A stretch of 64,000 bases of DNA from Ginglymostoma cirratum. Taxonomy: Eukaryota. The translations under genes and the position numbers were made by a program. Each line of letters begins with the position of its first letter. Position 1 is the stretch's first letter. A model generated the notes under the pieces. The model did not search any database, was not told the DNA's origin, and worked only from the letters and a program-made list of their open reading frames with translations. The stretch spans positions 19,402,846-19,466,845 of the forward strand of contig JAHRHZ010000035.1 in assembly GCA_024137785.1 (NCBI GenBank). Direction: 5' to 3'. Shown one piece after another: positions 2,087 to 64,000 of this stretch.

Positions 2087-3412
2087 TGTTACAATCCCAG
2101 ACCAGGTTGACAATTTTTTATTATGAACTTTCTAGAGCCCAGCAACCTTTTTTTGAAAAGTAGACAAAGTTTAAGATCAAAGATAAAAGGTACTGCAGAT
2201 GCTGGATGCTTGTTATCTCGGATTCCTATGATGCTGCTTGACCTGCTGTGTTCATCCAGCCCCATGCTTGTTATCTCAAAGTTTAAGATCAAGGTGTGTA
2301 CCAAGAGAATGAAATGACAAGATTCCACAGGTATGAACAAACAAAACTAAGTTTTACAAAGTTAGAATGGCAAGACAATCAAGATAAACAATTTATATTC
2401 TAATCTCCAGAATTAGGTTGACGTACGTATGAGTAACAGACAAACTGTGATCGAACACTCCACAGAGCACAGTAAATCACAAATCCAGTTTCGACAGATA
2501 CTATAGATTTCTCAGCAAACCCATAGACATTAGTAAATTTGTGGTTCATCAAATCTTATTAAAGATTCACAACTTTGAAATTCCTTCAAATGCCATGATG
2601 TCGTGGACAGTCACAATGACTGCTGACTTCTTTGTAGTTCCTTCTCCTTTCCTGGGACTGTACTCCCCTCAATCCCGGAAATTGTATGTCAGCACCTGCT
2701 CACAGGTAGAACTCCAGCTATTCCACAGACAGCTGGTTTCAACAAGCTAGTACCGTCTCGGGTCTCTCTGATCTCTAATCTTGGTCAGCTGTAAGAAGGA
2801 AATACTCTTTGTATTTTTCTTTCACCCACTGTCTGCTGCAATGAAGTGCAAATGGCTTATTCCAAGTCCCGCCAACATTACAATCGCACCTCCCCCTGCC
2901 CATGGCCAAGACCTTTTGTGAGCCTTACTCCCAATAGTTAACTGTACCTACAGTCTCCAAGGATGTTTTTGAATCCTTACTGTATAGAACTATCAAACAG
3001 CTCCTGAAACCTCAACCTGAGCTTTAACTGTACAATGCCTTCAGTCTTCTTCTCAGCAACCCAGATAACAACTGCATTTTTCCTGACTTGAGCTTCATCC
3101 TTTTCTTCACACTGCTGCTCTCTTTCTTTCTCTCTCTAACTGTCTTACAAACTCCAACTAACCCTAACTCTGGAACTGCCCTACAGTGACCCATGAAATT
3201 TTTGTGTGACCTACTGAAACTTCTACCACAAGCCCTGAATGTAAATAATATTAGAAAACCAAATTTCCTCAATGTTAGCATTTTCACAGCTTGCTGGCTT
3301 ACACAGTACAAATGAATATGAGAGGAAAACAGATTTCATCACATTTTCCCCTTGGGGAAGAAAAGCTTCACAATAGTGAATGTTTCTTTACAATGGCTTA
3401 GAAAATGTAACA
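2087..3412 (-). mobile_element. Putative long LTR (Gypsy-type)
   Basis: Termini tgttaca (2087-2093) and tgtaaca (3406-3412) form a perfect 7-bp inverted TG...CA pair; it starts where the CR1 tail breaks off; no clean TSD; strand inferred. Confidence 0.4.
2181..2276. mobile_element. Penelope-derived mini-element with the hammerhead core deleted
   Basis: Its segments match the arms of the 58912-59619 element; exact 16-bp TSD caaagtttaagatcaa at 2165-2180 and 2277-2292. Confidence 0.8.
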
Positions 3413-9599: not shown

Positions 9600-11928
9600 G
9601 ACTATTGTTTTCCTGCATTGTAGCACCAGAACAAATGGTTATAGAATTTGTTAGTTTCATTCAAAAGGAAAAAAGAGCCATATGAAAGGTTTAGGAAACT
9701 GAATTCAGACAAGGCTCTTGAGGAATACAAAGGAGGCAGGAAAAAACTTAAACAAGGAATTAGGAGGGCTCCATGAAATGTCCTTGGCAAGTAGGATTAA
9801 GGAGGATCTCAAGACATTTTGTATGTATATCAGGAGAAAGACAGTAGCAAGGGAAAGTGTAAGTCTGCTCAAGGACAAAGGAAGGAATTTTAAGGAGCCA
9901 GAGAAAGTGGGTGAGGTCCTTAACAAGTACTTTGCATCAGTACTCACCGAGGAGAGGAATATCGATGGTGGTAACAGGGAAGGGGTATAATAATGTTCTG
10001 GGGCATGTCGATATTAGCAAGGGGGAGGTGTTGGGTATCTTGAAAACCATTAAGGTAGCTAGGTCTCCAGGACTTGATGGGCTCTGTAGAAGGAAGTAAG
10101 GGAGGAGATTGCTGGGGCTCTGGCACGGATCTTTATACCCTCTTCAGCCACAGGCATGGTCCCAGAAGACTGGAGAATATCTTGTACCTTTGTTTAAGAA
10201 GGGTAACAGGGATAATCCAGGAAATTTTAGGCCAGTGAGCCTTACATCAATGATGGGGGAATTATTAGACAAGATTCTTAGGTACAGGATTTAGTCAAAT
10301 TTAGAAAAGAATGGATTTATTAGGCATAGTCAGCAAGGCTTTGCTCTCAAATTTGGAGTTTCAGGGCTAGGTCAGAGAGGAGCTTAGAGGAAGATAGAAC
10401 TAATGGGCTAATGGAAGAAACAAAGACAACAGAATCAGATGATTGGGTGGTGGTGACCTTAGTCCTTCCCATATATTGTTGGTAATGAGGCTCTAGGGAT
10501 GGGGATGTGGATGGGGATGGGGACGGGGATGGGGACAAGGATGAGGGTGGGTTTCCCTGATCAACTACTGGTGCGGCTACCTTAGAAAACACAGCCAAAG
10601 TGATTGGGTAGCAAATTGTTTTTAGAAGCTGGGTTGAGCTTTGCTGACACAGTATAAATGCAGATATAAGTTGTCATTTAACTGTTGTAATGTTAAATTG
10701 TACGCTACAATTAATAGTCATGATGCACTCAGACAGTAATGGCGTAAACAGCTGGGTTGAAATGCACCCTTGAGTTACAAAACACTGCAGGCTGATATCT
10801 TTCATGGGTGGTGGTACAGCATTCCTATGCCCTAGTCTCTCAAATTTGTGGAGTTTTTTGAGGAAGTGACAAAGATGATTGATGAGAGTAGGGCAGTGGA
10901 TGTTATCTACATAGACTTTCACCAAAGCATTTGACAAGGTCCTTCATGGTAGACTGGTCCAGAGGATTAGGTCATATGTATCAACGATGAGTTGCTAAGT
11001 TGGACACAAAATTGGCTTGGCCATCAAAAACAGAGGGTAGTTTTGGAGGGACGTTTTTCTGACCAGAGGTCTGTGATCAGTGGTGTTCTGCAAGAATCAA
11101 TGTTGTTTGTAATGTATAGAAACATTTTGGATGAAAATGTCGGCTGTCAGATAAGTAAGTTTGCAGATGATATGAAAGTTGGTGAAGTTGTGGATCATGT
11201 GGAAGGATGTCAAAGGATGTAGCAGGATATAGACCACTTGGAAAGTTGGGCAGAGAAATGGCAGATGGAGTTTAATCTGAGCAAGTGTGAGTCGATGTAT
11301 TTTTGGAGGTCAAATGCAAGAGGAAAGTATACAATAATGGCAGGACCCTTAGAAGCATTAATGCACAGAGGAAAATACTAAATAAAGAACTGCAGATGCT
11401 GTAAAAATACAAAGATATCTTGGTGTGCAAGCCCATAGTTCCATGGAAGTGGCAACACAAGTGGATAAGCTGGCAAAGAAGGTGTGTGCTTGCCTTCATT
11501 GGTCAGGGCATTGAGTATGAAAGTTGGCAGGTCATGCTGCAGCTGTATAAAGCTTTAGTTAGGCCACATCTGGAATATTGTCTCCAGTTCCAGTTGCCAT
11601 ATTATAGGAACGATGTGGAGGGTGGTCAAAGGATTTACCAAGATGTTGCCTGGATTGGAATGTATTAGCTATAAGGAGAGGTTGGACAAACTGGGAATGT
11701 TTTCACTGGAGCATCGGAGACTGAGGGGTGACCTAACAGAAATATATAAAATTATGAGAAGTATGGATAGGGTGAATAGTCGGAGTCTTTTTGTCATGGT
11801 GGAAATAGGGTGGGAAGTTTCAAAGAGATGTACAAAGAAGAGGGTGGTGGTGCCTGGAACGCCATACTAAGGGGAAGTGGTAGAAGAAGATATGATGGCA
11901 ATGTTTAAGAAGCATTTAGACAGACACA
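9600..11928 (+). mobile_element. CR1 ORF2 (tether plus RT), interrupted at 10361-10828 and ending before its normal tail
   Basis: EVLNKYFASV, VPLFKKGNRDNPGNFRPVSLTS, ISKFADDMKVG, LYKALVRPHLEYC and RRLRGDLTEIYKIM. Confidence 0.93.
10361..10828 (-). repeat. 468-bp inverted duplicate of 12202-12669
   Basis: Reverse-complement match at both ends (coordinates sum to 23030); the peptide MAVFSKVAAPVVDQG... is identical in ORFs 10347-10598(-) and 12432-12761(+). Confidence 0.95.
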
Positions 11929-12201: not shown

Positions 12202-12669
12202 ATAGGAATGCTGTACCACCACCCATGAAAGATATCAGCCTGCAGTGTTTTGTAACTCAAGGGTGCATTTCAACCCAGCTGTTTACGCCATTACTGTCTG
12301 AGTGCATCATGACTATTAATTGTAGCGTACAATTTAACATTACAACAGTTAAATGACAACTTATATCTGCATTTATACTGTGTCAGCAAAGCTCAACCCA
12401 GCTTCTAAAAACAATTTGCTACCCAATCACTTTGGCTGTGTTTTCTAAGGTAGCCGCACCAGTAGTTGATCAGGGAAACCCACCCTCATCCTTGTCCCCA
12501 TCCCCGTCCCCATCCCCATCCACATCCCCATCCCTAGAGCCTCATTACCAACAATATATGGGAAGGACTAAGGTCACCACCACCCAATCATCTGATTCTG
12601 TTGTCTTTGTTTCTTCCATTAGCCCATTAGTTCTATCTTCCTCTAAGCTCCTCTCTGACCTAGCCCTGA
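12202..12669 (+). repeat. Likely donor copy of the 468-bp inverted duplication
   Basis: Flanked on both sides by non-CR1 sequence, whereas the other copy interrupts a CR1. Confidence 0.9.
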
Positions 12670-12834
12670 CTTCTTACCGATTAGTGATTTCTCTCCCTTC
12701 AGCCCTCATCTCCTCTCCAAGCTACTCTTGTGAAATCCAACTCTTTCTGCGTTGGCCTTAACACCACTGTATTACTGTTCCCTCAACCGAGTCTTAGTGG
12801 TGTGCAGTATTCGGGAGAGAGTTGGAGGGCCTAG

Positions 12835-13800
12835 GGTTAAATGTGGGAGTTAGACGTGTGGGTGCATTTGGGGGAGTTGGTGGTGTGGGGTAAATGGAGA
12901 GATAGCAGGTGTGGGCATAAATGGGGGAATTTGGGGTGTGTGGGTAAATGGGTGAGATATGGGTGTGGGGGTAAATCGTGGGTGTTAGAAGGATCTGGGG
13001 GTAAATGAGGGTGTTAGAGGATTTGGGGGGCAAATGAGGGCTGTTACAGAGAGTGTGGGAGTAAATGGAAGGGAGATAGAGGAGGTGTGGGGTAAATGGG
13101 GGAATTTGGGGTATGGGTGTAAATGAGGGGTTAGGAGGATGTGGGATAAATGGGTGTGCTAGGACGGTGTGGGGGTAAATTGGGGGAGTTAGGTGGTGTG
13201 GGGGTGAATGGAGGTGTTAGGAGAGTGTGGTGGTAAATGGCAGATTGAGGGTGTAGGGGTAAATGGGGTCATTAGGAGATGTGGGGTAAATATGGTGGGG
13301 TTGGGGGTGTGGGAGTGAGCGAGTGTGGGGGTAAATGTGGGCATTGGAGAGTGTGGGGGTAAATGAGGTGAGGTTGGGGGTGTTGGGGGAAATGTGGGCA
13401 TTAGGGGGTGTGGGGGTAAATGGGGTGAGGGTAGGGGTGTGAGGGGAAATGTGGGTGTTAGGGGTTGTGGGGGGTAATGTGGGCATTAGGGGTAAATGGG
13501 GTGATGTTGGGGGTGTGGGGGGAAATGTGGGCATTAGGGGGTGTGGGGTTAAAAGGGGTGGGTTGGGGGTGTGGGGGAAATGTGGGCATTAGGGGGTTTG
13601 GGGGTAAATGGAGTGAGGTTAGGGGTGTGGGGGGAAATGTGGGCATTAGGGGTTGTGGAGGGAAATGTGGGCATTAGGGGTAAATGGGGTGATGTTGGGG
13701 GTGTGGGGGGAAATGGGGTGAGGTTAGGGGTGTGGGGGAAATGTGGGCATTAGGGGATGTGGTGTTGAGGGTGTGGGGGGAAATGGGGTAGAGTTAGGCT
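12835..13800 (+). repeat. G-rich satellite of ~28-bp subunits forming a ~56-bp dimer; G-quadruplex-prone
   Basis: Repeated ggggaaatgtgggcattagggggtgtgggggtaaatggggtgagg; dense G3-G6 runs. Confidence 0.9.
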
Positions 13801-15941: not shown

Positions 15942-15981
15942 AGGGTTCTGAAGAAGGGTCTAGGCCCGAAACGTCAGCCTT
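15942..15981 (+). ncRNA. Minimal type-I hammerhead ribozyme motif
   Basis: CUGAAGA 15948-15954, extra A, stem II GGGU/GCCC with CUAG loop, GAAA, CG, UC (GUC triplet, predicted cut after 15975); 6-bp stem I AGGGUU/AGCCUU. Confidence 0.6.
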
Positions 15982-16074
15982 CCTGCTCCTCTGATGCTGC
16001 TTGGCCTGCTGTGTTCATCCAGCTCTACACCTTGTTATCTCAGATTCTCCAGCATCTGCAGTTCCTGCTATCTC
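15942..16074 (+). mobile_element. Penelope terminal repeat (single arm plus 34-nt tail)
   Basis: ctgaagaagggtctaggcccgaaacgtcag...gttatct followed by cagattctccagcatctgcagttcctgctatctc. Confidence 0.85.
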
Positions 16075-16075
16075 T

Positions 16076-18189: not shown

Positions 18190-18480
18190 CTTTTAATGGA
18201 TGTGGGTTTCACTGGCATTTATTGCCCATTCCTAATTGCCCTTGAGGAGTCGGTGGTGAGTTGCCTTCCTGAACCATCATCGTCCATTTGTTGTAGGCAT
18301 TTCCTGTTAGGAAGGGATAGTAAGAACTGCCAATGCTGGAGTCAGAGATAACACAGTGTGGAGCTGGAGGAACACAGCAAGCCAGGCAGTATCAGAGGAG
18401 CAGGAAAGCTGATGTTTTGGGTTGGGACCCTTCTTCAGAAAGGTCCTGTTAAGAAGGGACTTTCAGGATTTTGAACCCCT
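18190..18480 (-). mobile_element. LINE tail (same family as 15595) carrying a Penelope insertion
   Basis: ggcatttattgcccattcctaattgcccttgag...caggattttga. Confidence 0.65.
18318..18443 (-). mobile_element. Penelope terminal arm with decayed hammerhead core
   Basis: TSD tcctgtta(g/a)gaaggga at 18302-18317 and 18444-18459 (15/16); minus strand CTGAAGAAGGGTCCCAACCCAAAACATC. Confidence 0.85.
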
Positions 18481-20513: not shown

Positions 20514-20639
20514 GAACAAAAACAAAGATGCTGGAAAAACTCAGCAGGTCTGGCAGCATCTGTAGAGGAGAAAACAGAGTTAACGTTTCGGGTCCGGTGA
20601 TCCTTCCTCAGAACTGATGGTGGCTGGGAAAACATCAGT
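20514..20639 (-). mobile_element. Penelope terminal arm (second subfamily)
   Basis: 9-bp TSD ttattgtag at 20505-20513 and 20640-20648; arm closely similar to the 21845 element. Confidence 0.8.
20578..20615 (-). ncRNA. Minimal hammerhead ribozyme motif
   Basis: AGUU-CUGAGGA-A-GGAUC-ACCG-GACCC-GAAA-CG-UU-AACU: intact core, 4-bp stem I, one mismatch in stem II. Confidence 0.55.
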
Positions 20640-21844
20640 TTATTGTAGTCCTGGAGTTACATGTAAGTCAGACCAGTTAAGGATGACAGATATCCTTCCC
20701 TAAAGGACATTAGTGTATCTGATGGGCTTTTATGATAGTTGACTTTGAACTGAATCTTAGCATATTTTGTCAAAGTTTCATGTTCAGTGAGTTGCATGGA
20801 GGGTTTCTCTCTGCAAGGTTTAGCTAGTTCTTGTTCTACCCTCCTAACTGACCTTATTAACTACCCACCACACCCCTAGGGTACCCCTCACATCCAGTAC
20901 TAGTCCAATTCTCCCAATCGCTGTAACTAGACGTACTCTCCATTGTATGGTAACACGTCCACCCCCTTGACGATCACTGCTGACAACCAGGACTAACTGT
21001 TTGGCTTTGTGCCTACATTACAAGGCAAGTCAAGACAGATGGATGAAACTTTGAGCTAACAGGGCAAAGTGCAGAAAGTTAAGGCAAGACTGGGATCCTG
21101 TGATCATCCCGGACAGTGAGCACTAAGTGAGCAGCCCTGAGCTGCTGCCTGGTCCAAAGCATGAGCTACGTGCATGACCTTGCATACAAAATGTCCCTGC
21201 AGCAGCTTTCCAATGACAACTCCTGGTGTGCTCCAGAGTGCACTATTGAAGTGCAGAAGGATACTGTAAATGGATCGGAATTGTGTCACGAGAGTTTCGT
21301 GTTACATATCAGACGCCACTGTCCTTGGACAAAGAGTGGCCTGTAACCATGCAGTGCATCCTGAGGCATTGGTACTGGGTGTCCAAGATGGAAGTGTAAA
21401 AACACAAAGGGCACATTGGAGACGATGCAAAAAGTAGTAAAACAGGAGAGCAGATATTAATGAAGTGAGATTAAGCCATAATGAGGGTGATCATGAGCAA
21501 TGATCCATTTTAATAGACATCTCACTGCTCACTCATGAGAATCTCATCTCAACTTCTGGAATTTAGTTGGGAAGAGAGATATATTGCCTTTACTGTTTGG
21601 AAAGACCTCACTTGACTTCTCACATGATGTTTCCAATTTTTGTCTCCACTGTCCTTGTCTTTCATTATTGTAGAATTGATGTTAGATCAACCATGATGGT
21701 ATTGAATGGCAGAGCAGGCTCAAAGGACTGGGGGGCCTGCTGTTGTTTCAACTATTAGGTTAGCTTTTAATTCCAGATATTTATTGAATTGGAATTTCAC
21801 CGTCTGCCCAGGTGGGATTCAAACCCATATCCCCTCGAACATTA

Positions 21845-22363
21845 CAACAACAAAAACAAAGTTGCTGGAAAAGCCCAACAGGTCTGGCAGGATCTGTGAA
21901 GGGGAAAACAGAGTTAACATTTCGGGTTCGGTGACCCTTCCTCAGAATTCAGAAGTTCTGAGGAAGGGTCACCGGACCCAAAACATTAACTCTGTTTTCC
22001 CCTTCACAGATCCTGCCAGACCTGCTGAGCTTTTCCAGCNNNNNNNNNNNNNNNNNNNNNNNNNNNNNNNNNNNNNNNNNNNNNNNNNNNNNNNNNNNNN
22101 NNNNNNNNNNNNNNNNNNNNNNNNNNNNNNNNNNNNNNNGCTGGAAAAGCTCAGCAGGTCTGGCAGGATCTGTGAAGGGGAAAACAGAGTTAATGTTTTG
22201 GGTCCGGTGACCCTTCCTCAGAACTTCTGAATTCTGAGGAAGGGTCACCGAACCCGAAATGTTAACTCTGTTTTCCCCTTCACAGATCCTGCCAGACCTG
22301 TTGGGCTTTTCCAGCAACTTTGTTTTTGTTCCTGATTTACAGCATCCATAGTTCTTTTGGTTT
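21845..22363. mobile_element. Palindromic Penelope-derived element, probably assembled twice across a gap, inserted in a SINE head
   Basis: TSD tcccct(c/a)gaacatta at 21830-21844 and 22364-22378 (14/15); ~100-bp inverted arms; 21851-22039 is the reverse complement of 22140-22328. Confidence 0.85.
22040..22139. other. Assembly gap (100 N)
   Basis: Run of n. Confidence 1.
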
Positions 22364-23630: not shown

Positions 23631-24154
23631 TAAAGAATTCTGGCCCTTGAATGAGGAAAAACTGTATAGTTATTTCATAATGACCAGGCTCTTATAATTA
23701 TGTTGTTGCGCTTGGTGTGGGCATATTTGCCAAACCCTTGGGTGATTTCTTTGTTCTGTGTCTGAACATGCTTCCTTACAAAATCTCTGCTTTGTTGACA
23801 TATAACATTGAAATGTCTTTCAAAATATACTTGAGTATTTTGTCCCGGCATGATTGCCTTGGCAGTTGTTTGCATATTAACATGATAAATATCGTTAGGA
23901 GTGTAGACTGATTCCTTTCCCTACCCCATTCCTCTACAAACCACAACAAAATCTGAATATGAAGGGGAAGGTGCTATTGTCAGTTTGGACACATTAGACT
24001 GCATGTAGCTCAGGATCACAAACAAGTCATCTAGGTTCTCTTAGTTAACAAATAAAGAACAAGTTTAATACAAAAAGAAATCATTCATGCAAAGATTATT
24101 CACAGAATGATTAAAACATGCAAATACATCCAAATACCCTTCTTGATAAAAAAA

Positions 24155-24366
24155 ACACACACGCACGCACAAACATACACACACATACACGCATAACCAC
24201 ACACACACAAATACACACAAACAATATGCACACACATAATCACACCCACATATGCACGCACATAACCACTCCCACATGTACAGACAAACATACACACACA
24301 CACTTACATACACACAAATGCACAGACACACATGTACATAACACATACATGCACACATATACACAT
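24155..24366 (+). repeat. Degenerate (CA)n/(CATA)n microsatellite
   Basis: About 210 bp of alternating purine-pyrimidine CA-rich sequence. Confidence 0.95.
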
Positions 24367-27230: not shown

Positions 27231-29203
27231 CCCAGAGGAACTAAGAAGTAAGATCATTCTCTGTGTGAGATTTAATGTAGAATTAGGACCTTTGCCTTTT
27301 ATGGTCAAAACTGTCCCCAGTCTAATCCACTAAGACTGAACACAAACCCATGATTGAGATTATCAGATGTGTTCACATTTCAGGAGCAGGGAGAATATTA
27401 ACCTCTACTTACCTGGATGGCAGCTAATCAGAGTCAAAACCATTGGCTTTCAGGTTCAAGCAGTCTGTTTTCCATGCTGTAATATTCGATAATGCTTGAC
27501 AGGTCTCTTGTTTTTTAGACTGAAACAAATGGGATAATCTGTAAGAAATGACCAATGAAATTGGTTTATAAGAGAACACAAAAATATTTTACAAGGCAGT
27601 TTTAAATAAAGCTATGAATGTTTGGTATTTGCAGCTGGAACTACATAGCAGGTTTGTCAATGACTATAAAACCACCAATCCAGAAGTACTGGGTTGAAAT
27701 CGATCTTTCGTGAGGTGTTTAATTAAATTTAAGTTGCTGTATGTTTTTCTGGCAATAGATGAAAATAATGACCCATGGAAGACTACTATCAAAACCCAAC
27801 AGATTGATAAAGTTTCTTCAAGGAACGGAACCTGACACCGTAGCTGCTCTTATTTCATCGTGGATCTTGTTCCAAACCACATACTTGATTCATAATGCAC
27901 TTTGATGTTCTAAACAAAAATCACTAAGAAGGTGTATCAGCACCACCTTAGGCTACTAGAGATGAATGGTAACTGACAGGAATCTGCCACATTCCAGAAG
28001 AGAAATATTTTTAAAGTCTCAGAGAAAATACAAGTGAATATTTCAGGTAGTATTTCTTCACTCGTTAGGAATGTGATCGTTATCCAGAATGCTAACCTAA
28101 GTTTTCTTTCACAAATCATGACAGAAATGCTAGCATTTCTTTTTGAATGTTCAAGTAGTTCCTCTTTGCGAAAGACACAGCAAGAGGATTTGTGTTCTCA
28201 GGGGAATGCTGCAAAAGCCAATTCCCTGGTACCAAGAGTGGTTCCATTGTAATGGGGTGGGGGGCAGGGTGGCTGGTGCGATGGTGCAGGAGGCAGTGAT
28301 TTAGATTCTTGAGGCATTGGGACCAATTCCATGGAAGATGGGATTTGTCCAGGCTGGGAAGTTGTACTCCAGCAGGACTGGGACTAATGTCTTCACAGGG
28401 CATTCGCTAGTAAAATGGGAGAGGCTTTAAACTGGAATGGCAGCAGTCATGAATCTGAGAAGAGAGATAAAATATTATGGAAATGAAGATGAAAATGATA
28501 TTTAAAAGAAGTAGCAAGCAAAAGTGGAAGACAGAGGAAAAAAGACCTAGCTGCAAATAGGGCTGGAGTACAAAAATACCTCTAAAATGTCAAAAGACAG
28601 GTCTGATGATATTATATCTGAATGCATGCAACACTCGCTATAAGATAAACAAATTAAACAATTAAGATAAACAAGATAAACAAATTGCAAATTGTTGTAA
28701 AGGGTACAATATGATCACGATGATGGAGACAAGGCTGTGAGGTGACTAAGGCTCGGAGCTGAACATCTGATGGTGTTCATTTCTTTAGGAAGGACAGGTA
28801 AAACAGTAAGGAAATGCAACAGTGAGAAAGGATATTGGTGGAGAAATAGAATGGAAAATAGAATGCCAAATAATGGTGAGATGAGTGATAGCATTAAACA
28901 AGAAATTTGATATGCATGCAACCAGGGTGCTACACTAGTCATGAGTGATTTTAATCCCCATTGAGACTAGGCAAACAACATTTGCAATAACATTGTGGCA
29001 GGTGAATTCCTGGGTGTGTACAAGATGGAGTTTTGGATCAGTACATTAAGGAACTAGCTTGGGGCAAGCTGTCCTAGATTTGATTTCGTGCATGGAAATG
29101 GAGTTAATTAATAGCCTTGTTGTGAAAGATCCTTTAGGAAAAAGAGACCATAGCATGATAGAATTCTTCACTGGAGTAGAAAGCGAAGTAGTCAAATCTG
29201 AAA

Positions 29204-29422
29204 GAACACAGTATGGAGCTGGAGGAACGCAGCAGGCCAGGCAGCATTAGAGGAGCAGGAAAGTTGATGTTGGGGTCAGGAGCCTTCTTCATTTTCTGAA
29301 GAAGGGTCCTGACCCAAAACGTCAACTTTCCTGCTCCTCTGATGCTACCTGGCTTGCTGTGTTCCTCTAGCTCCCACACTGTGTTGTCTCTGGCTCCAGC
29401 ATTTGCAGTTCTTGCTATCTCA
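29204..29422. mobile_element. Palindromic Penelope-derived element
   Basis: Exact 14-bp TSD agtcaaatctgaaa at 29190-29203 and 29423-29436; inverted arms meet near 29292; plus-strand core CTGAAGAAGGGTCCTGACCCAAAACGTC. Confidence 0.9.
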
Positions 29423-29889
29423 AGTCAAATCTGAAACTAGGGTCCTAAACCTAATTTAAGGAAACTATGAAGGTATGAGGGGTCAGTTGGCTACAATAGG
29501 CTGATAACTTCATTAAAAGACATGACAGTGGATATGCAGGCAACAAGTGACTGCTTTGCAACAGTTATCTTTGGATGAAAGAACACAGCAGAAAAGGTGG
29601 CCCGACCATGGCTAACATCCAAAGAGAAGTAACATAAAGTTGCTACAAAAGCTAGCAAGCCTGAGGACTGAGCACAGATTAAAATTTGGCAAAGGAAGAC
29701 CAAGTGGTTGATTAAGAAGGGAGAAAATAGAGCATGGGAGTAAACTTGCAAAGAAAATAAAAGCAGTCTGTGAAAGCTTATTTTAGCACGTAAAAATAAA
29801 AAGATTAGTGACAACAAATGTAGTGCTGTTACAATCTGAAATGGGAGAATTGGTAATACAGAACAAGAAACTGACAGAACAATTGTACA

Positions 29890-30581
29890 GAGATAGCAGG
29901 AACTGCAGATGCTGAAGAATCTGAGATAACAAGGTATAGAGATGGATGAACACAGCAGGCCAAGCAGCATCAGAGGAGCAGGAAAGCTGACGTTTCGGGC
30001 CAAGAACCTTCTTCAGAAAATGACCCTTCAGAGCTTGGTCTGCTGTGTTCATCCAGCTTGACATCTTGTGATCAAACATTTTACTTGCTCTGTGTTTGGG
30101 AAGGGATTCACTCGGCCCTCNNNNNNNNNNNNNNNNNNNNNNNNNNNNNNNNNNNNNNNNNNNNNNNNNNNNNNNNNNNNNNNNNNNNNNNNNNNNNNNN
30201 NNNNNNNNNNNNNNNNNNNNNNNNNNNNNNNNNNNNNNNNNNNNNNNNNNNNNNNNNNNNNNNNNNNNNNNNNNNNNNNNNNNNNNNNNNNNNNNNNNNN
30301 NNNNNNNNNNNNNNNNNNNNNNNNNNNNNNNNNNNNNNNNNNNNNNNNNNNNNNNNNNNNNNNNNNNNNNNNNNNNNNNNNNNNNNNNNNNNNNNNNNNN
30401 NNNNNNNNNNNNNNNNNNNNNNNNNNNNNNNNNNNNNNNNNNNNNNNNNNNNNNNNNNNNNNNNNNNNNNNNNNNNNNNNNNNNNNNNNNNNNNNNNNNN
30501 NNNNNNNNNNNNNNNNNNNNTTCCTGCTCCTCTGATGCTGCTTGGCCTGCTGTGTTCATCCAGCTCCACACCTTTTATCTT
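29890..30581. mobile_element. Penelope-derived element with inverted arms spanning a gap
   Basis: Exact 14-bp TSD agaacaattgtaca at 29876-29889 and 30582-30595; minus-strand core CTGAAGAAGGTTCTTGGCCCGAAACGTC at ~29988-30016. Confidence 0.85.
30121..30520. other. Assembly gap (400 N)
   Basis: Run of n. Confidence 1.
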
Positions 30582-34501: not shown

Positions 34502-34935
34502 ATAAAAACAGAAAATGAGGGAAATACTCAATAAGTCAGGCAGCAACTGTGGTCAGAGGAACAGAATTAACATTTCAGATCAATGATCTTTCATCAGTAC
34601 TGGAAAATGTTCCAGTTTTTAAGCAAGTACAGAGGCAGGAAAATATGGGGATAGGGAGAAAGGATAAAACGGAATGTAGAATCAAAGGCAGGAATGATTG
34701 AATGATGAAAGGGATGATATTGTCAGGGAAGGCACAAACAAGGAAGTGGGAGGCAGCTCTTGAGGAGGTGAAAATGGCTCCAAAAATATGCAAGTATTGG
34801 TTATTATTTGAAATTGTTGGACTCAATACTGAGTTGGAAATGGCTGCAATATGCTTCATCAAAATATGAGATGTTGCTCCTTGAGCTTCCGCTGAGCTGG
34901 TTAGAAAAGAGTGGGAGGCTGAGGACAGAGAGATC
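34502..34935 (-). mobile_element. Penelope 3' end: GIY-YIG C-terminus, 3' UTR, hammerhead motif and terminal arm
   Basis: Reverse strand encodes AQRKLKEQHLIF...LQP..LSIESNNF (Penelope RKLEEQHLIF..LQP.GLNIEFNNF), followed by CTGATGAAAGATCATTGATCTGAAATGTT. Confidence 0.8.
34565..34600 (-). ncRNA. Minimal hammerhead motif (older subfamily)
   Basis: CUGAUGA-A-AGAUC-AUU-GAUCU-GAAA-UG-UU; perfect 5-bp stem II whose sequence differs from the other copies. Confidence 0.5.
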
Positions 34936-35095
34936 AGCGTGTTAGAACTTATTCCCACATTTAACTCATTCTCCTTTAACCTGTCTCATTTTCAATTAGA
35001 ATTAAGAGTCTTAAAGTTGAAGCAATCTTAAATGTTTCCATGTAACTGTTTGTAAATGGAGAAAACACAGACACAGCAAAACAGTTTTACAGCTA

Positions 35096-36304: not shown

Positions 36305-36585
36305 CTGCTAAATATCACATTGCTGTTTGTAGGGGCTTGTTGTGTGCAAATTGGCTGACATGTATTTATGTGACAACAATAGCTAGATTTTTTAAAAATG
36401 CTAAAAACAGAAATTGCTAGGGAAACTGCTGGCTTTGTCAGTCAGCATTAGATGCTGCCAGACTTGTTAAGTTTCTCCAGCAATTTCTGTTGTTTCAAAT
36501 CTTTGGCACTTGCAATTCTTGGTTTTATCAAAAAAACATGATTACATCCTGTGGTAATAAAGGTGCTAGATAAATGCAAGTTGGT
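36305..36585 (+). mobile_element. Deu-domain SINE 3' part containing a collapsed Penelope palindrome (~36400-36530)
   Basis: atcacattgctgtttgtaggggcttgttgtgtgcaaattggctg...aggtgctagataaatgcaag; internal inverted pair cagaaattgct / agcaatttctg. Confidence 0.6.
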
Positions 36586-43944: not shown

Positions 43945-44529
43945 AGCTTTTGCAGTTCCCTTGTCACCTTGCAGTGGAAACTCTGATTCGGGAGATAACG
44001 CTTGGCTGTTAGCTCCCCAAGAGGGGCCATCAGTGTCTGAAATGCCTGTCCTTGTCAAATGACTGAAATTTAATTGTGTTTAATTGTTTACTTATATGAT
44101 TCTGGGAGTCTAAGTCAGTTGCTGTTTGACCTGCAGAGGGAAAGTTAGTTTCCAGGCTAAGCTTGCAGCCTGCATTGGCTCCTCCATTTCTGTCGCTATG
44201 TTGTGGGCTGGAGAGAAACCTTCCTTTTGCATGTGAGGAGGATAGCGACTGAGCCCAGCTCACCGAAGAAATTATTAGCGTACACTGACCTTCAAGAAGT
44301 TTAAATTCACTGACCCAATTTTTATTTAATGGAGTAATTGGCCTGAGAGCAAAGATGGCCATCAAAATGACTGCCTGCAAATGTCCAAATAAGCTTAGTG
44401 ATGTTAGTTCCTGGAAACAGATGACACTAAGCCAGAACGTGTCAGTGTGTGGGCCAGTGACATCACTGCACTCCGTGTGTAAGAACGTCACTAACGGCAC
44501 ATGAGCAAAAGGACTTCTGAGGCTGATGT

Positions 44530-44925
44530 TCAGCAATGGCCTTCCTAACTGCCAACTGAACCTGCATGTTAACTTTAAGAAATCCTGAAGTAGAACTGAC
44601 GAGTCCATTTGTGCTTCAGATTTCCAAAGCCTTTCCCCTTTTAGAAAATATTCTATGCCTCTATTCTTCCTACCAAAATGCATAAGCGCACACTTTCCCA
44701 CATTGTATTGCAACCGCCACTTCTTTGCCCATTCTCCTAGACTGTCCAAGTCCTTCTGCAACCTCCCCGATTCCTCAACGCTACCAGTTCCTCCCCCTAT
44801 CTTTGTGTCAAACTTAGCAGCAGTGCCCTTAGTTCCTTTGTCTAGGTTGTCAATATATAATATGAACAGTTGTGGTCCCAACACGGACCCCTGCAGAACT
44901 CCACTAGTCACTGGCTGCCATTAAA
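44530..44925 (-). mobile_element. CR1 RT fragment
   Basis: TSGVLQGSVLGPQLFILYIDNLD...RLQKDLDSLGEWAKKWRLQYNVGKC. Confidence 0.9.
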
Positions 44926-48184: not shown

Positions 48185-48680
48185 GCACTCCACAGATCTG
48201 AATACCTTCCGATACTGAGGGGCAGCTGTGCTGCTGAAGGTGCCATTTTTTCAGAAGTGACATGAAATTGATGCCAAATCTGCTCCTTAGTTGGAAACTA
48301 AAGACCCCATGACACTATTTCTAGGAAAACTAGGGGATTTCTGCAGTAATAAAACTGAATATTTTGGAAATGCTGAGTAGGGCAGCACTTGTGAAGAGAT
48401 GAACAACGTTAATGTTTTAAGTTGATGATCTGCCAGCCGAATTCTTCCAGTATTTTTGCCAATATTCAGCCCATCACCAATGTCAGATTTTGCCCTGAAC
48501 CACTATCTCTCGTCACGTAATCTCTTCCAGCCAATTGCAGATCTTCACTTGATTTCTATTCCTCTTTTCCCCCTTTCCCTGTCTCTGTACTTCCTTTAAT
48601 CCTGTCACACTTTTATCCTTCTCCAGTCCTTAAAGGATTATTGGCATGAAATGTTAAGTGGGGTTTTCCCAGGTGAAGGT
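48185..48680. mobile_element. Deu-domain SINE fragment followed by old Penelope remnants
   Basis: tactgaggggcagctgtgctgctgaaggtgcc...aaagaccccatgacactattt; arm remnant at ~48350-48430. Confidence 0.45.
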
Positions 48681-50064: not shown

Positions 50065-51755
50065 TAGAGTCAAAGAATCATAGAGATATATAGCACGGAA
50101 ACAGCCCCTGCAATCCAGCTTGTCCATGCCAACCAGATATCCTAAATAAATCTAGATCCATTTGTCAACATTTGGGTCATATCCCTCTAAACCCAACCCT
50201 CTAAACCTATTCATATCCCCATCCAGATGCCTTTTAAATGTTGTAACTGTACCAGCCTCCACCACTTCCACTGGCAGCTCATTCCATACACACATCACCC
50301 TCTGTGTGAAAAAGTTGCCCCTTATGTTCCTTTTAAATCTTTCCCCTCTCACCTTAAACCTATGCCCTCTAGTTTTGGACTCCCTCATGTGGAGGAAAAG
50401 ACCTTGGCTATTTAGTCTATCCATGCCCCTCATGATTTTATAGACATCTATAATGTCACTCTTGAGCTTCCAACACTAGTTCCAGCCCCAGTCTATTCAA
50501 CTTCTCCCGATAGCTCTAACGCTCCAATCCTGGCAAAATCCTTGTAAATCTTTCCTGAACCCTTTCAAGTTTCACAACATCTTTCCTATAGAAGGGAGAC
50601 CAGAATTGCACACAATATTCCAATTGTGGCCTAACTAAGGTCCTGTACAGTCACAACATGACCTCCCAACTCCTATACTCAATGCACTGACCAATAAAGG
50701 CAAGTATACCAAATGCCTTCTTCACTATCCTGTCCACCTGTGACTCCACTTTCAAGGAAGTATGAACCTGCATTCCAATGCCTCTTTGTTCAGTAACACT
50801 CCCCAGGACCTTACCATTAAGTGCATAAGTCCTGCCCTGATTTGCCTTTCCAAAATGCAGCAGCTCACATTTATCTAAAATAAACTCCATCTGCCACTCC
50901 TCAGCCGATTGGTCCATCTGTTCAAGGTTCTGTTGTACTCTGAGTAACCTTCTTTGCTGTCCACTACACCTCCAATTTTGATGTCGTCTGCAAACATACT
51001 GACCATACTTCCAATGTTCACATCCAAATCATTTATATAAATGATGAAAAACAATGGACCCAGCATCAATCCTTGTGGCACACCGCTGGTCACAGGCCTC
51101 CAGTCTGAAAAGCAACCCTCCACTACTACCCTCTACCTTCGAGCCAGTTCTATATCCAATTGACTAGTTGTCCCTGTGTTCCACGTAATCTAACTTTGCT
51201 AACCAGTCTACCATGAGGAACCTTGTCGAACGCCTTACTGAAGTCCACATAGATAATGTCCACCGCTCTGCCCTCATCAATCCTCTTCATTACATCTTCA
51301 AAAAACTCAATCAAGTTGGCAGCACAGTGGCTCAGTGGTTAGCATTGCTGCCCCACAGCACCAGGGACCCAGGTTCAATTCCAACCTCAGGCGACTGTCT
51401 GGGTAGAGTTTGCACATTCTCCCCATGTCTGCGTGGGTTTCCTTCAGGTGCTCTGGTTTCCTCCCAAAGTCCAAAGATATGCAGGCTAGATGAATTATCC
51501 ATACTAAATTACCCATAATGTCCAGGGATATGTAGATTAGGTAGGTTAGCCATGTGAACAGCAGGGATAGGATGAAGTTGTGAGTCTGCATGGAATGCTC
51601 TTCAGAGAGTTGGTGTGGATGTGTTGGGCCGAATGGCCTGTTTCCACACTGTAGGAATTCTATAATTCTATGACCTAAGTTAGTGAGACATGATTTCCCA
51701 CTCACAAAGCCAAGTTGACTATCCCTAATTAGTCCGTGCTTTCCAAATACATGTG
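50065..51755 (-). mobile_element. CR1 3' part (same family as 212-1458) with an HE1 insertion
   Basis: [50 protein letters not shown] and RGHRFKVRGERFK. Confidence 0.94.
51318..51676 (+). mobile_element. HE1 (V-SINE), full length
   Basis: Head, V domain and tail present; TSD aagtt at 51313-51317 and 51677-51681. Confidence 0.93.
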
Positions 51756-57575: not shown

Positions 57576-59022
57576 AAATCCCACAGATCATGTTGTACGT
57601 GCCAAATTGGGGCATAAAAGGACTCCTGATTTTGGTGGCAAACCTGAATTTGCGTCTATCCTCTGTGTACTTTCCGCTAAGAAATTCTACACTAGCAAAA
57701 GCGACAGGCATTTTTGTAACCTCAAAAATTCATTTTTTAGCCACCTTACAATTCGCTGCATGGGATCAACAGGTGATTCAGTTGGTGTTGCTGGGAGTGT
57801 AAGAAATGCCCACACAGACCAGACTGTACCTGAACAATGAACATAAATCAGTTCCCGTGCAAAGGATTGAAGTACAATGTTGGCTTAAGTTTAAAAGTGC
57901 CATCCTATCAAATGACTGAGCTGCAGAGAAGGAATTTGTACTAGTGAAAAGTTGGTATGAGAATGGTAGAAAGAGGATTGCACTGTAAAGAGGACACCCA
58001 AGATCAACTGCACCCACAGAACGGTGACCAGCACTGGCTTCACCTTGAGAAACATGTATTGAAGTAGATCCTTAACAATACCAGAATTGTTACATTGTCA
58101 CCAGTCATGCAAACACTTAATTGGGCAAAATCAAACCATGGGTCCAGCAGAGATTTCAGAGAAATAGCTAATTGGTTTAGAGTCTTGTATTTTGAATGTT
58201 GGGTTACTGTCTACGTGTCACTTTGTACAATTAATCAATCCAACAATATATGCAATAATGATTTAATTTGAGTTACTAGTGCTGTTTTGTTCTCATTTCA
58301 AAATAGTGATCATTTACATCATAGGTTCATGGTTTATACTCAGTGCATCAGTCATTTTTTTTTAAACCCTGTTTCCTAAAGGATTTTTTTAAGGCTCCAA
58401 AGCTCAACGTATACATCACAATCTATCGTATCTTTTGGATGTGAAGCCCAGATAGGGTTTCTCAAAATCATGAAAAGTGCACTATAAATGCAAGTAATTG
58501 GTTTATTTTTATGTAACTAAATTTCACTGTTTTATTTCTTTGCCAAACTTTAGTCAACATAGTTTTGTACCTCTGGCATACAATTGTATGGAATTTCTCA
58601 AAAACAACAAAATGGCATCTTGATCTTCTGTATTAACTGGGATTAGATCCTTTTAACAGCTTTAGAAAGTGATCCCAATTATTAAATTGATCAATCGTTT
58701 GGGGAAGTTGGCATGATTATTCTATTTGAATCTGTTTAATCGGTTTATCATAGAATTAAATGGCAAAGTAGCCACATGGATTCTCCAATTTAATGTTGCG
58801 TGTCAATGACTGATTCCTACTGGCTGATTTGAGGAAATCAAATTCATTGAAGGCATACAATAAAACAAATATTTTTGGTTCCTTTGCAAAACGATATGAA
58901 ATGTAATGAGAGATAAAAGGTACTGCAGATGCTGGAGAATCCGAGATAACAAGCATGGGGCTGGATGAACACAGCAGGTCAAGCAGCATCATAGGAGCAG
59001 GAAAACTTGACGTTTCGGGCCT

Positions 59023-59422
59023 NNNNNNNNNNNNNNNNNNNNNNNNNNNNNNNNNNNNNNNNNNNNNNNNNNNNNNNNNNNNNNNNNNNNNNNNNNNNNN
59101 NNNNNNNNNNNNNNNNNNNNNNNNNNNNNNNNNNNNNNNNNNNNNNNNNNNNNNNNNNNNNNNNNNNNNNNNNNNNNNNNNNNNNNNNNNNNNNNNNNNN
59201 NNNNNNNNNNNNNNNNNNNNNNNNNNNNNNNNNNNNNNNNNNNNNNNNNNNNNNNNNNNNNNNNNNNNNNNNNNNNNNNNNNNNNNNNNNNNNNNNNNNN
59301 NNNNNNNNNNNNNNNNNNNNNNNNNNNNNNNNNNNNNNNNNNNNNNNNNNNNNNNNNNNNNNNNNNNNNNNNNNNNNNNNNNNNNNNNNNNNNNNNNNNN
59401 NNNNNNNNNNNNNNNNNNNNNN
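59023..59422. other. Assembly gap (400 N)
   Basis: Run of n. Confidence 1.
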
Positions 59423-59522
59423 AGACTTGTCTGCCTCCTCTCCACCTATCCTCTCCTCTATCCATCCTCTATCCGCCTCCCCCTCTCTCCCTATTTATTT
59501 CAGAACCCTCTTCCCCTCCCCC

Positions 59523-59558
59523 ATTTCTGATGAAGGGTTTAGGCCTGAAACGTCAAGT
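59523..59558 (+). ncRNA. Minimal hammerhead ribozyme motif with canonical CUGAUGA core
   Basis: AUUU-CUGAUGA-AGGGUUUAGGCCU-GAAA-CG-UC-AAGU; stem I AUUU/AAGU; GUC triplet, predicted cut after 59554. Confidence 0.6.
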
Positions 59559-59659
59559 TTTCCTGCTCCTATGATGCTGCTTGACCTGCTGTGTTCATCC
59601 AGCCCCATGCTTGTTATCTTGAAATGTAATGAGATCTGCTTACTTCCAAACATCATTAT

Positions 59660-62110: not shown

Positions 62111-63346
62111 ACGATAACGATAAAAGGGGACTATCAATGTTCAACTTTTGACTTGAATATTGAGACTTTAATGAACTAAATATAATCTTGAAAAGGACAC
62201 GACTGGCCTAAGATGGTTTTGTGGATGCGGGAGGTAAGTGCGTTTTTCCCTCAACTTTAAAATCTATAATTGTCTTTTTTTATGATCAATATCAAGCTCT
62301 TCTTCAAACATTGCCAAATTCCTCTATATATCCATGCATTGTACACTCGAGTGATGGAGACAAGATAAAGCTCTGGGTTAATCTCCAGTCTGTATTGAAC
62401 CATTTGCTTTAGGTCATTGGTAGTACAGCTGCTACAACTCACCTTTAAATCTCCTTTGATTACAAATATAAATTCAATCAGGGTTCCCATGTCCATCACT
62501 TCCCAGTGGCCCCAACTAAATTACGTGAGTGGACTTAAGGTGAATTCAGTTTTTTTATTAGCTGCATTGCATTTGAACTGAAATCTGAACAAAGGGCAAT
62601 TATACCAGATTTCAATAAATTTAGTGTAACAACAAGCAAGGTGTTGGAATTTCAGAGTATGGTCAAGTAGATTTCACATTGAATCACAAGACCAGTTGTG
62701 CACCAGATGAATTCAGATGTGTGGCCCTTGCATTAAAAAGCGCAAAGATTGAGAATATATTATAAAATTCCATCCTTAAACCTTTCTATCTTACTCTCCT
62801 CCTTTAATACATTCATGCAAGTCTACCTGTTTGGCCAAGCCTTTGGTAATTTCCTCAACATCTTTTTACATAGCATGTGATCAGATAGGTAATGATATAA
62901 ATGAGCAATACTTTTACAAATGTGAACTTGTATTTGTAAAGCAGTGTAAGCTGTGCCATCAATGTGCCCTTAGGAGCATTTCTTTCTCATTACCCTTGTA
63001 TTACATGCACTGTGAAGTGCAGCTCCTAGCCGACAGTGCCTCGCCTGGTGCAAGGCTGGTTTGAAAATTATCCCATGCAGCGAATCTAAGGAATGTGAGC
63101 ACTCTGCCATTACTGAGCACAGAATAGTGTGAGCAGTTTTCCATTGAGATGTGCTGTGTACATCATGAGATGAGCTGTGGAAAATAATGTCACAAAACTC
63201 ACAGAGAGAAATGCCCCATGAATCTCCCCAAAATCGGCAGTAAGCCAATTTATGGTAAAATGCAGCACGTAATATTTTTAACAAAACCAATTGTGGTTGA
63301 ATTAAGGTTGTGTGATCCTTGTAAAATAGTTTCCTAGATATAATAG

Positions 63347-63571
63347 AGATAGCAAGAACTGAAGATGCTGGAGTCAGAGATAACACAGTATGGAGCTGGA
63401 GGAACACAGCAGGCCAGGCAGCATCAGAGGAGCAGGAAAGCTAACATTTCGGGTGGGGACCCATCTTCAGAAATGTGCTTTCTAAAGAAGGGTCCTGACC
63501 TGAAACGTCAGCTTTCCTGTTCCTCTGATGCTGCCTGGCCAGCTGTGTTCCTCCAGCTCCACACTGTGTTA
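63347..63571. mobile_element. Complete palindromic Penelope-derived element, gap-free
   Basis: TSD tccta(g/c)atata(a/c)tag at 63332-63346 and 63572-63586 (13/15); ~95-bp inverted arms around tgtgc; hammerhead-like core on each strand. Confidence 0.9.
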
Positions 63572-64000
63572 TCCTACATATACTAGCATGCTTTGTTGGA
63601 ATACGTATCTGAATCAGTTCTGATGAGACTGTAACAGCGTGTACTTACATAGCACAGTCAGTCTGTCTTTTTCCTCCCCTTTTTTCTGAGGGTTGGGCCA
63701 TGCTAATCCATTGAATCAGTCCACTCAGTGGGCAAAAGTACTGCAGTCATTTGTCATTGCTTCCTGCAGGATGACTGGCCAGAAAACTCCCACTTTTACT
63801 ACCTGCCATCAGGTATATTGGAAGAGTTTGCAATGTTAATCAACCTGTTTGGCCACATTACAAACACATGTTCTGAAGCTAACAAGTCCTAGCAAGGATC
63901 TCAAACCCAGAGCTTCTGGCCAAGAGGCAGAGATGCTACCATTGCCCAAAAAGACCTTGTTTACAGAACAGTGCATCTCGGAATATTGTCCTGAAGTACT

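What the first reader, a model, noticed from the sequence alone, without database searches (positions are those of the whole stretch)
63332..63586. Palindromic ~220-bp retro-mobilised elements with a hammerhead motif on each strand
Seen: this gap-free copy is two inverted copies of one ~100-bp arm; 29204-29422 and 21845-22363 have the same layout, and the gapped 29890-30581 and 58912-59619 also have inverted arms. The arms meet at their hammerhead-like cores. The minus strand reads CUGAAGA-U-GGGU-CCCC-ACCC-GAAA-UG-UU; the plus strand reads CUAAAGA-A-GGGUC-CU-GACCU-GAAA-CG-UC (core G mutated). Established: Penelope-like retroelements carry minimal hammerheads in their terminal repeats and often insert with inverted repeats. 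Inference: these are not DNA-transposon MITEs, as the hairpin shape suggests. They are either a non-coding, ribozyme-bearing unit mobilised by Penelope (retrozyme-like, with both polarities) or repeated independent extreme 5' truncations of Penelope. Transcription in either direction gives a ~95-bp hairpin that would mask the ribozyme and could be an ADAR or Dicer substrate.
Basis: partly seen in the sequence, partly recalled or inferred. Interest (0 to 1): 0.75.

Follow-up and report, generated by a model that had tools for sequence, protein, structure and literature searches.

The report
Mirror-image stubs of a Penelope retrotransposon
This DNA palindrome is one of many short, decaying insertions that are likely the ribozyme-bearing tip of a Penelope-type jumping gene, and each copy has its own centre, so the mirror image is likely built anew at each insertion rather than copied as a unit.

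Summary
63345-63573 is a head-to-head palindrome (95-nt arms, 89% complementary) with a minimal-hammerhead motif on each strand, both damaged. The insertion is bounded by a ~13-15-nt target-site duplication (7 of 13 family insertions tested have one, nominally 14-16 nt, all different). Only one arm carries an extra ~32-nt 'tail' (6 of 6 duplication-bounded inverted pairs). Inverted end, one-sided tail and duplication are the published signature of Penelope-like elements (PLEs), not of MITEs. All 4 fully visible centres differ, single arms and hammerhead-less copies exist, and contigs of relatives give 131 joint rows; the 15 shown have at most 4 contigs per run. A residue of interest remains: 9 of 15 young arms start within -6..+1 of the hammerhead core, and one copy (2182-2277) has non-overlapping arms that abut exactly on the parent sequence, which favours two RNA-templated primings. 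A parent ORF is not confirmed; cleavage, editing and expression are untested. The scan reached the same reading before on another genome (e1-7858806).

The parts
63332..63346 (+). Left copy of the target-site duplication (15 nt nominal; last 2 nt also fit the element end)
   Evidence: 15 nt, 2 mismatches; a score this high in 0.7% of 1,929 random position pairs
63345..63376 (-). Tail: ~32-nt 3' extension present on this arm only
   Evidence: sharp ends into diverse A-rich flanks at 63345/46 and 63376-78 in relatives (table 7)
63379..63475 (-). Left arm (hammerhead at its 5' end; begins 5 nt upstream of core C3)
63443..63470 (-). Minimal type I hammerhead motif, core intact, stem II 4 bp, helix III and cleavage triplet altered (AUGU, GUU) relative to sister copies
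   Evidence: cleavage untested
63476..63478 (.). Copy-specific filler at the head-to-head junction
   Evidence: differs from all other visible centres
63479..63573 (+). Right arm, no tail (begins 3 nt upstream of core C3)
63482..63509 (+). Minimal hammerhead motif with core G5 changed to A (63484); predicted inactive
   Evidence: inactivity inferred from hammerhead chemistry (recalled)
63572..63586 (+). Right copy of the target-site duplication
29204..29422 (.). Same subfamily palindrome; tail on right arm; left arm lacks C3; arms overlap by 2 nt; 14-nt perfect duplication (29190-29203 / 29423-29436)
29890..30581 (.). Gapped insertion; tail on left arm; 14-nt perfect duplication; 10-nt filler and a short hammerhead-less sense arm before the gap (possibly chimeric assembly)
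58912..59619 (.). Gapped insertion; arms 99% alike; tail on left arm; right arm runs at least 104 nt upstream of the hammerhead into pyrimidine-rich sequence; 15-nt perfect duplication
2182..2277 (.). Hammerhead-less insertion: inverted tail-only piece, 18-nt sense piece, 52-nt sense arm; inverted and sense pieces abut exactly on the parent sequence; 16-nt nominal perfect duplication
21845..22363 (.). Second-family palindrome, duplicated across a 100-N gap by assembly; tail on the right end only; 15-nt duplication with 1 mismatch
18316..18443 (-). Single arm with tail, same subfamily as the focal copy, with its own 16-nt nominal duplication (1 mismatch)
15946..16075 (+). Single arm with tail and an intact minimal hammerhead motif, preceded by a short tandem piece; no duplication found
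20515..20650 (-). Single arm of the second family running about 35-40 nt upstream of the hammerhead
34502..34960 (-). Old related arm with hammerhead, pyrimidine-rich upstream stretch and a broken coding-like stretch at about 34800-34950 that resembles the end of a PLE endonuclease (recalled resemblance, not confirmed)
   Evidence: searches gave no confirmation

Best explanation
The palindrome is one old, decaying insertion bounded by a target-site duplication, likely the hammerhead-bearing terminal repeat of a Penelope-like retrotransposon, whose two arms were likely made at the insertion site by two separate reverse-transcription primings. Steps: (1, shown) staggered cut of about 13-15 nt, read from the duplications; flanks in relatives are A-rich. 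(2, inferred from the green-anole PLE, which nicks and extends both strands and starts at two internal RNA sites bounding the tail) each nicked strand primes cDNA on element RNA, one at the tail end and one at the no-tail site, which puts both 3' ends outward and the tail on one side only (pattern shown, 6 of 6). (3, inferred) both cDNAs stop after about 95-130 nt, most often just 5' of the hammerhead core, because the RNA begins there or the enzyme stalls at an upstream hairpin. (4, shown as sequence) the two cDNA ends are joined with copy-specific microhomology or filler. (5, shown) the copy then decays neutrally; the hammerheads are passengers, damaged, and predicted to be buried in the hairpin if transcribed.
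For: Duplications of 14-16 nt nominal, all different, in 7 of 13 insertions tested. Tail on exactly one arm in 6 of 6 duplication-bounded inverted pairs (0.5^6 = 0.016 if arms chose independently). The tail sits left in 4 and right in 2. Four of 4 fully visible centres differ. Single arms, hammerhead-less inverted copies and longer 5' extensions exist. In relatives: two sharp 3' ends with 971+740 and 391+373 loose ends into diverse flanks in X1, and 131 joint rows, the 15 best supported held by at most 4 contigs per run, including tandem 'goes back' joints. At 2182-2277 the inverted piece covers parent positions 86-111, the sense pieces 68-86 and 28-80, so neither side can be a copy of the other. 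Arms of the focal subfamily are star-like, 86-90% alike. Literature: inverted pLTR, one-sided 30-40-bp tail and 8-10-bp duplications (PMC3846280; PMC8557442); minimal hammerheads in PLE repeats, including pairs on opposite strands 100-700 bp apart (PMC4209133); both-strand extension, two start sites, hammerhead dispensable in vitro (PMC11167929).
Against: No parent PLE reading frame was confirmed by any tool. Rfam does not recognise the hammerheads. Covariation of the proposed helices is not significant against shuffles (31-105 of 500), although it beats slid controls (85% paired against at most 51%). 5' ends cluster (9 of 15), which plain random truncation does not predict. The 63k and 29a centres fit cDNA fold-back equally well. 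The two-priming step rests mainly on one copy and on the one-tail rule. PMC11167929 found no difference in start site between strands in vitro, so the strict one-tail rule is not explained by it. Six of 13 insertions gave no convincing duplication. Duplications are longer than the 8-10 bp quoted for rotifer PLEs. Of 131 joint rows 116 were not shown, and the reference's own divergent hammerhead region breaks alignments near the centre.
Confidence: 0.7

Rival explanations
1. Same Penelope origin and same per-insertion construction, but the second arm is made by the first cDNA folding back on itself and copying itself (self-priming), with the endonuclease trimming one end at the no-tail site.
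For: Proposed for head-to-head PLE junctions in PMC3846280; tail attributed to endonuclease resolution in PMC8557442. The 29a centre reads as a 2-bp stem with a 5-nt loop and the 63k centre as a 5-nt loop. The two arms of one insertion share subfamily variants (58k arms 99%, 21k arms 93%).
Against: The 2182-2277 copy has arms that share no sequence, and it is young (98% to 59R), so later deletion is a poor escape. Two RNA start sites bounding the tail were measured directly for another PLE.
Confidence: 0.2
2. The template is a dedicated ~130-nt non-coding, single-arm RNA (a SINE-like or retrozyme-monomer-like PLE derivative) that is inserted singly or as a twin-primed pair. Compatible with the best explanation for how the palindrome is built; it differs in what is copied.
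For: All 5 visible arms of the focal subfamily begin within -6..+1 of the core. RNA-guess run X23 shows loose ends into diverse sequence at 63472 and 63474 (5 contigs each). Retrozyme monomers derived from pLTRs are described (bioRxiv 10.64898/2026.07.22.740005).
Against: Sister subfamilies run further upstream (59R at least 104 nt, 20s about 35-40 nt, 34s several hundred nt), and 59R has the same letters just 5' of the core. No head-to-tail array of full arms is in the window.
Confidence: 0.25
3. The ~230-nt palindrome replicates as a whole (both-polarity retrozyme-like unit).
For: Similar overall size and layout at 63k, 29a and 21k; opposite-strand joints cluster at 63471-63474 in relatives (7 of the 15 joint rows shown are 63438-40 to 63471-74).
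Against: All visible centres differ; no left-arm or right-arm lineage; single arms and hammerhead-less forms; the hairpin buries both motifs; no editing mark in the genomic copies.
Confidence: 0.05
4. A DNA-transposon MITE.
For: Hairpin shape and high copy number.
Against: Long variable duplications, unequal ends, frequent single arms, tandem pieces, hammerhead motifs.
Confidence: 0.01

Closest known systems
EN+ Penelope-like element insertions with inverted pLTR and tail (PMC3846280; PMC8557442 Fig. 2 legend; PMC8969392)
   Same: Head-to-head inverted terminal copy, 30-40-bp tail on one end only, target-site duplication, 5' truncation, partial tandems, hammerhead in the terminal repeat.
   Different: Here the insert is reduced to two ~100-nt tips with no coding body; duplications are 14-16 nt nominal rather than 8-10; 5' ends cluster at the hammerhead; parent ORF and clade (Neptune or Poseidon) not established.
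Minimal PLE hammerheads (PMC4209133)
   Same: CUGANGA core, extra base before stem II, G-C first pair, GAAA followed directly by a palindromic 4-mer and no helix III loop; pairs on opposite strands 100-700 bp apart were already noted in Schistosoma.
   Different: The two motifs here are under 20 nt apart inside one hairpin, and both are damaged.
Green-anole Poseidon element PAc (PMC11167929)
   Same: Two internal reverse-transcription start sites bounding the tail, AT-rich targets, both strands cut and extended; matches the two sharp 3' ends seen here.
   Different: Palindromic products were not described in the parts read; no strand preference of start site in vitro; no protein is in hand here.
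Animal non-LTR retrozymes (PMC7229834; bioRxiv 10.64898/2026.07.22.740005)
   Same: Non-coding, type I hammerhead, PLE-related, long duplications when present.
   Different: Retrozymes are head-to-tail tandem repeats with active ribozymes that give circular RNA; these copies are head-to-head, decayed and differ at each centre.
LINE-1 5' inversion by twin priming (recalled, not read)
   Same: Both target nicks prime on RNA; inverted and sense pieces abut on the template, as at 2182-2277.
   Different: L1 keeps a poly(A) end and non-overlapping pieces; here most pairs copy the same ~95 nt twice and have no poly(A).

Membership tests
EN+ Penelope-like element insertion | Inverted copy joined head-to-head at the 5' end | tested here: met
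EN+ Penelope-like element insertion | 30-40-bp tail on one end only | tested here: met
   6 of 6 duplication-bounded pairs (the 22k tail resembles the others only weakly); two sharp ends in relatives
EN+ Penelope-like element insertion | Variable target-site duplication, AT-rich targets | tested here: met
   7 of 13 insertions; A-rich flank consensus
EN+ Penelope-like element insertion | Minimal hammerhead motif in the terminal repeat | tested here: met
   by pattern, not by Rfam; covariation not significant
EN+ Penelope-like element insertion | Variable 5' truncation and partial tandems | tested here: met
   with a strong cluster at the hammerhead
EN+ Penelope-like element insertion | Parent ORF with telomerase-like RT and GIY-YIG endonuclease | tested here: inconclusive
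   broken stretch near 34800-34950 resembles an endonuclease end from recall; searches gave no confirmation
Animal non-LTR retrozyme | Head-to-tail tandem units each with a hammerhead | tested here: not met
   no such array in the window; genome-wide not testable
Animal non-LTR retrozyme | Conserved replicating unit | tested here: not met
   4 of 4 visible centres differ; joints scattered
Animal non-LTR retrozyme | Self-cleavage and circular RNA | not testable with these tools
   no raw RNA reads were listed
MITE (DNA transposon) | Fixed short duplication (TA, TTAA, 8-9 bp) | tested here: not met
MITE (DNA transposon) | Symmetric terminal inverted repeats reaching both ends | tested here: not met
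   tail on one end only; single arms
MITE (DNA transposon) | Cognate transposase | not testable with these tools
   no genome held

The most novel reading that the evidence does not exclude
These stubs are run-off products of a two-headed Penelope integration: one enzyme complex primes both target strands at the two RNA start sites (always one tail arm and one tail-less arm) and copies to a defined RNA 5' end just before the hammerhead, possibly from a dedicated ~130-nt non-coding RNA. Thousands of such insertions in these genomes would then be a natural library that decides between twin priming and self-priming as the source of Penelope's head-to-head inverted ends.
Probability: 0.4. Interest if true: 0.55.

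Novelty: new member of a known kind. Interest (0 to 1): 0.3.

Why it matters
As an element it is ordinary: a minimal form of a published PLE insertion structure that automatic pipelines could mislabel as a MITE or as a microRNA-like hairpin (Rfam gives sub-threshold miRNA hits). Its value is as data. How PLEs make head-to-head inverted ends is unresolved in the papers read (self-priming was proposed in PMC3846280; later integration steps are called unvalidated in PMC11167929). These very short copies show both ends, the junction and the duplication within 250 bp, in thousands of instances, so the question can be counted directly.

Tried and rejected
No own genome is held, so no genome-wide census was possible. 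Rfam: 0 matches at gathering score; 8 sub-threshold matches on the focal copy, 7 miRNA and 1 sRNA, taken as generic hairpin or chance hits. Pattern scans found nothing in metagenome contigs, viral contigs or prokaryote genomes. Parent ORF: Pfam 0 families; PDB one chance hit; word-index search no candidate; phmmer gave 3 repetitive unrelated proteins, rejected after Pfam and tblastn checks; motif look-ups in two papers' supplements gave 0 (long cells are cut there, so unseen supplement text could bear on this). The identity of the 34.8-kb stretch stays open. Expression: no RNA holder listed. Two runs guessed to be RNA hold family contigs (7,352 and 1,434 laid), but contigs show neither level, strand nor editing, and one high-depth joint in X23 is a single contig; none of this is used as evidence. 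The depth profile was not used as copy number or truncation profile. Covariation test on 11 hammerheads was not significant. Editing signature in DNA: not seen. The 36.4-kb and 48.4-kb old inverted pairs were left out of the tail count because no convincing duplication was found. Gene conversion between arms was not tested.

Full report
Setting. The window is repeat-rich vertebrate-type DNA with three N gaps and fragments that look like CR1-type LINEs (label recalled). No own genome is held.

Observation. The focal copy is as described: arms 63379-63473 and 63479-63573, 95 nt, 89% complementary, folding into one hairpin with z about -19 on either strand. Both hammerhead readings are correct. 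A core-plus-GAAA pattern occurs 8 times in the window against 0.09 expected, always in this repeat family, and one of the 8 is an assembly duplicate. Rfam does not score them. That is no surprise for minimal variants lacking helix III, but it is not support either. On 11 aligned motifs the proposed helices are 85% paired, far above slid controls (at most 51%), but covariation is not above shuffles (31-105 of 500).

A profile built from 16 window pieces finds 29 hits at E<=1, against 1 on the reversed window; 24 of them have E<=0.01. I tested 13 insertions, with edges set by eye and 6 nt slack, for flanking direct repeats. Seven have 14-16 nt (nominal; 63k, 29a, 29b, 58k, 2k, 18k, 22k), all different in sequence. 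Scores that high occur in at most 0.7% of 1,929 random pairs. Six gave none. In the 6 duplication-bounded inverted pairs, exactly one arm carries a ~32-35-nt extension, on the left in 4 and on the right in 2. The four fully visible centres (63k, 29a, 21k, 2k) all differ; 29b has a further, partly gapped junction and 58k is hidden by a gap. Single arms occur (15946, 18316 with its own duplication, 20515), hammerhead-less inverted copies occur (2182-2277; older ones near 36.4 and 48.4 kb), and some arms run further 5' (59R at least 104 nt, 20s about 35-40 nt, 34s several hundred nt). The 21845-22363 copy belongs to another family and is doubled across a 100-N gap by a letter-perfect inverted duplicate, most likely an assembly artefact.

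Relatives. I laid contigs of 4 of the 24 listed runs on the left flank plus left arm at 80% likeness. Laid were 58,878 (X1) and 88,183 (X14) contigs; these are not copy numbers. Loose ends into diverse, A-rich flanks pile up at two places, the tail end (X1: 971+740; X14: 1,522+1,100) and the no-tail end (X1: 391+373; X14: 953+1,026). That points to thousands of separate insertions with two sharp 3' ends. There are 131 joint rows, of which the 15 best supported are shown, none with more than 4 contigs in a run. They include opposite-strand joints at several places and tandem 'goes back' joints. Seven of the 15 fall at 63438-40 to 63471-74; the letters between are not shown and the reference is divergent there, so this shows a preferred arm start, not a shared centre. 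One contig each in organisms A and B covers the left flank and continues 31 and 45 nt into the element (9 and 18 other letters), so the insertion is shared with both relatives and is old.

Decay. The five arms of the focal subfamily are 86-90% alike with a star-like tree, and 20 of 30 differences from their majority are G>A or C>T. There is no A-to-G excess such as an edited hairpin template would leave. Of 11 visible motifs, 1 has lost G5 and 3 have lost G12 at a CpG. No gap-free palindrome has two intact motifs except by partial credit: 63k has G5A on one side and an altered helix III on the other, 29a has G12A and a truncated core, and 21k has G12A. In the full hairpin, stem II forms with probability below 1e-10 on both strands (0.91 for the minus arm alone, 0.0005 for the plus arm alone). 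In either direction of transcription the antisense arm is made first, so the ribozyme would emerge onto its complement (inference).

Comparison with print. PMC3846280 (11 of 11 passages; supplement searched) describes the typical PLE insert as ending in an adjacent inverted pLTR, with a 31-bp tail optionally on one inverted pLTR, 8-10-bp duplications and head-to-head junctions, and proposes self-priming. PMC8557442 (12 of 19 passages; supplement searched and listed) says the same for all EN+ clades. PMC8969392 (8 passages) repeats it as curation advice. PMC4209133 (parts 1-2 of 4) defines the minimal hammerhead, reports pairs on opposite strands 100-700 bp apart, no monomer cleavage and low dimer cleavage. 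PMC11167929 (parts 1-2 of 4) shows a PLE protein cutting and extending both strands at AT-rich DNA, starting at two internal RNA sites that bound the tail, with the hammerhead dispensable and protein-assisted. The retrozyme papers (bioRxiv 10.64898/2026.07.22.740005, parts 1-3 of 5; PMC7229834, 12 of 18 passages) define those elements as head-to-tail tandems. PMC2377424 (5 passages) places the D. virilis start site in the terminal repeat. PMC12602865 (3 passages) added nothing. Six searches (listings only beyond the papers named) showed no paper on these mini-palindromes in sharks; Repbase and Dfam could not be searched and may already hold the families.

Mechanism. The geometry is what results if both nicks of a staggered cut prime cDNA on element RNA: both 3' ends face outward, the 5' ends meet, and the stagger becomes the duplication. 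The copy at 2182-2277 is the best single test. Its inverted piece covers parent positions 86-111, its sense pieces 68-86 and 28-80. The inverted piece shares nothing with the sense side and abuts it exactly, so it cannot be a fold-back copy. The 63k and 29a centres cannot tell twin priming from fold-back. By my count, 9 of 15 arms of the young families start within -6..+1 of core C3 (the other six: 29b short arm, three pieces of 2k, 20s, 59R). This could be the RNA's 5' end, since the letters there fit an initiator consensus (recalled), or a stall at the hairpin predicted just upstream in 20s and 34s. It could also mean the focal subfamily is a dedicated short RNA. These are not separated here.

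Parent element. Upstream of the old 34.5-kb arm, one minus frame reads AQRKLKEQHLIF**SILQP with coding-like pieces in neighbouring frames. From recall this resembles the end of a PLE GIY-YIG domain, but no search confirmed it. PLE membership therefore rests on insertion anatomy and the hammerhead, not on a protein.

Verdict. Real, retro-inserted, not a MITE and not a self-replicating palindrome: a minimal member of a known PLE insertion class. Another agent reached the same reading on another genome; I formed mine before seeing it, and it is not independent proof. Interest 0.3, kept above the floor by the one-tail rule, the 5' cluster and the non-overlapping copy, which make a mechanistic question countable.

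Noticed in passing
window 10361-10828 and 12202-12669: A 468-nt letter-perfect inverted duplicate 1.4 kb apart. The first copy sits between two copies of a 12-nt direct repeat (10344-10355, 10837-10848) inside a CR1-like RT fragment. Either a gap-filling artefact or a very recent templated insertion.
   Followed up: partly
window 21849-22330: Letter-perfect inverted duplication across a 100-N gap: short palindromes of this family appear to break this assembly, and all three N gaps in the window lie inside family insertions.
   Followed up: yes
window 34800-34950 (minus): Broken coding-like stretch upstream of an old hammerhead arm; resembles a PLE endonuclease end from recall; unconfirmed.
   Followed up: partly
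joints 63345>63379, 63345>63381, 63346>63391, 63348>63393: Relatives hold a few tail-end to tail-less-end joins on opposite strands (3'-to-3'), 1-3 contigs each: possibly insertions next to or into an earlier copy.
   Followed up: no
window 12800-13800: G-rich tandem array with a ~28-29-nt unit.
   Followed up: no
window 24150-24340: AC-rich microsatellite-like array.
   Followed up: no
window 36404-36530 and 48344-48468: Older, more diverged inverted pairs of related families, one long and one short arm each, without a full hammerhead.
   Followed up: partly
window 608-1362, 50484-51243, 44030-44920, 19725, 23564, 35376, 51602: LINE-like RT fragments and repeated 3' ends typical of CR1-related repeats (label recalled).
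   Followed up: no
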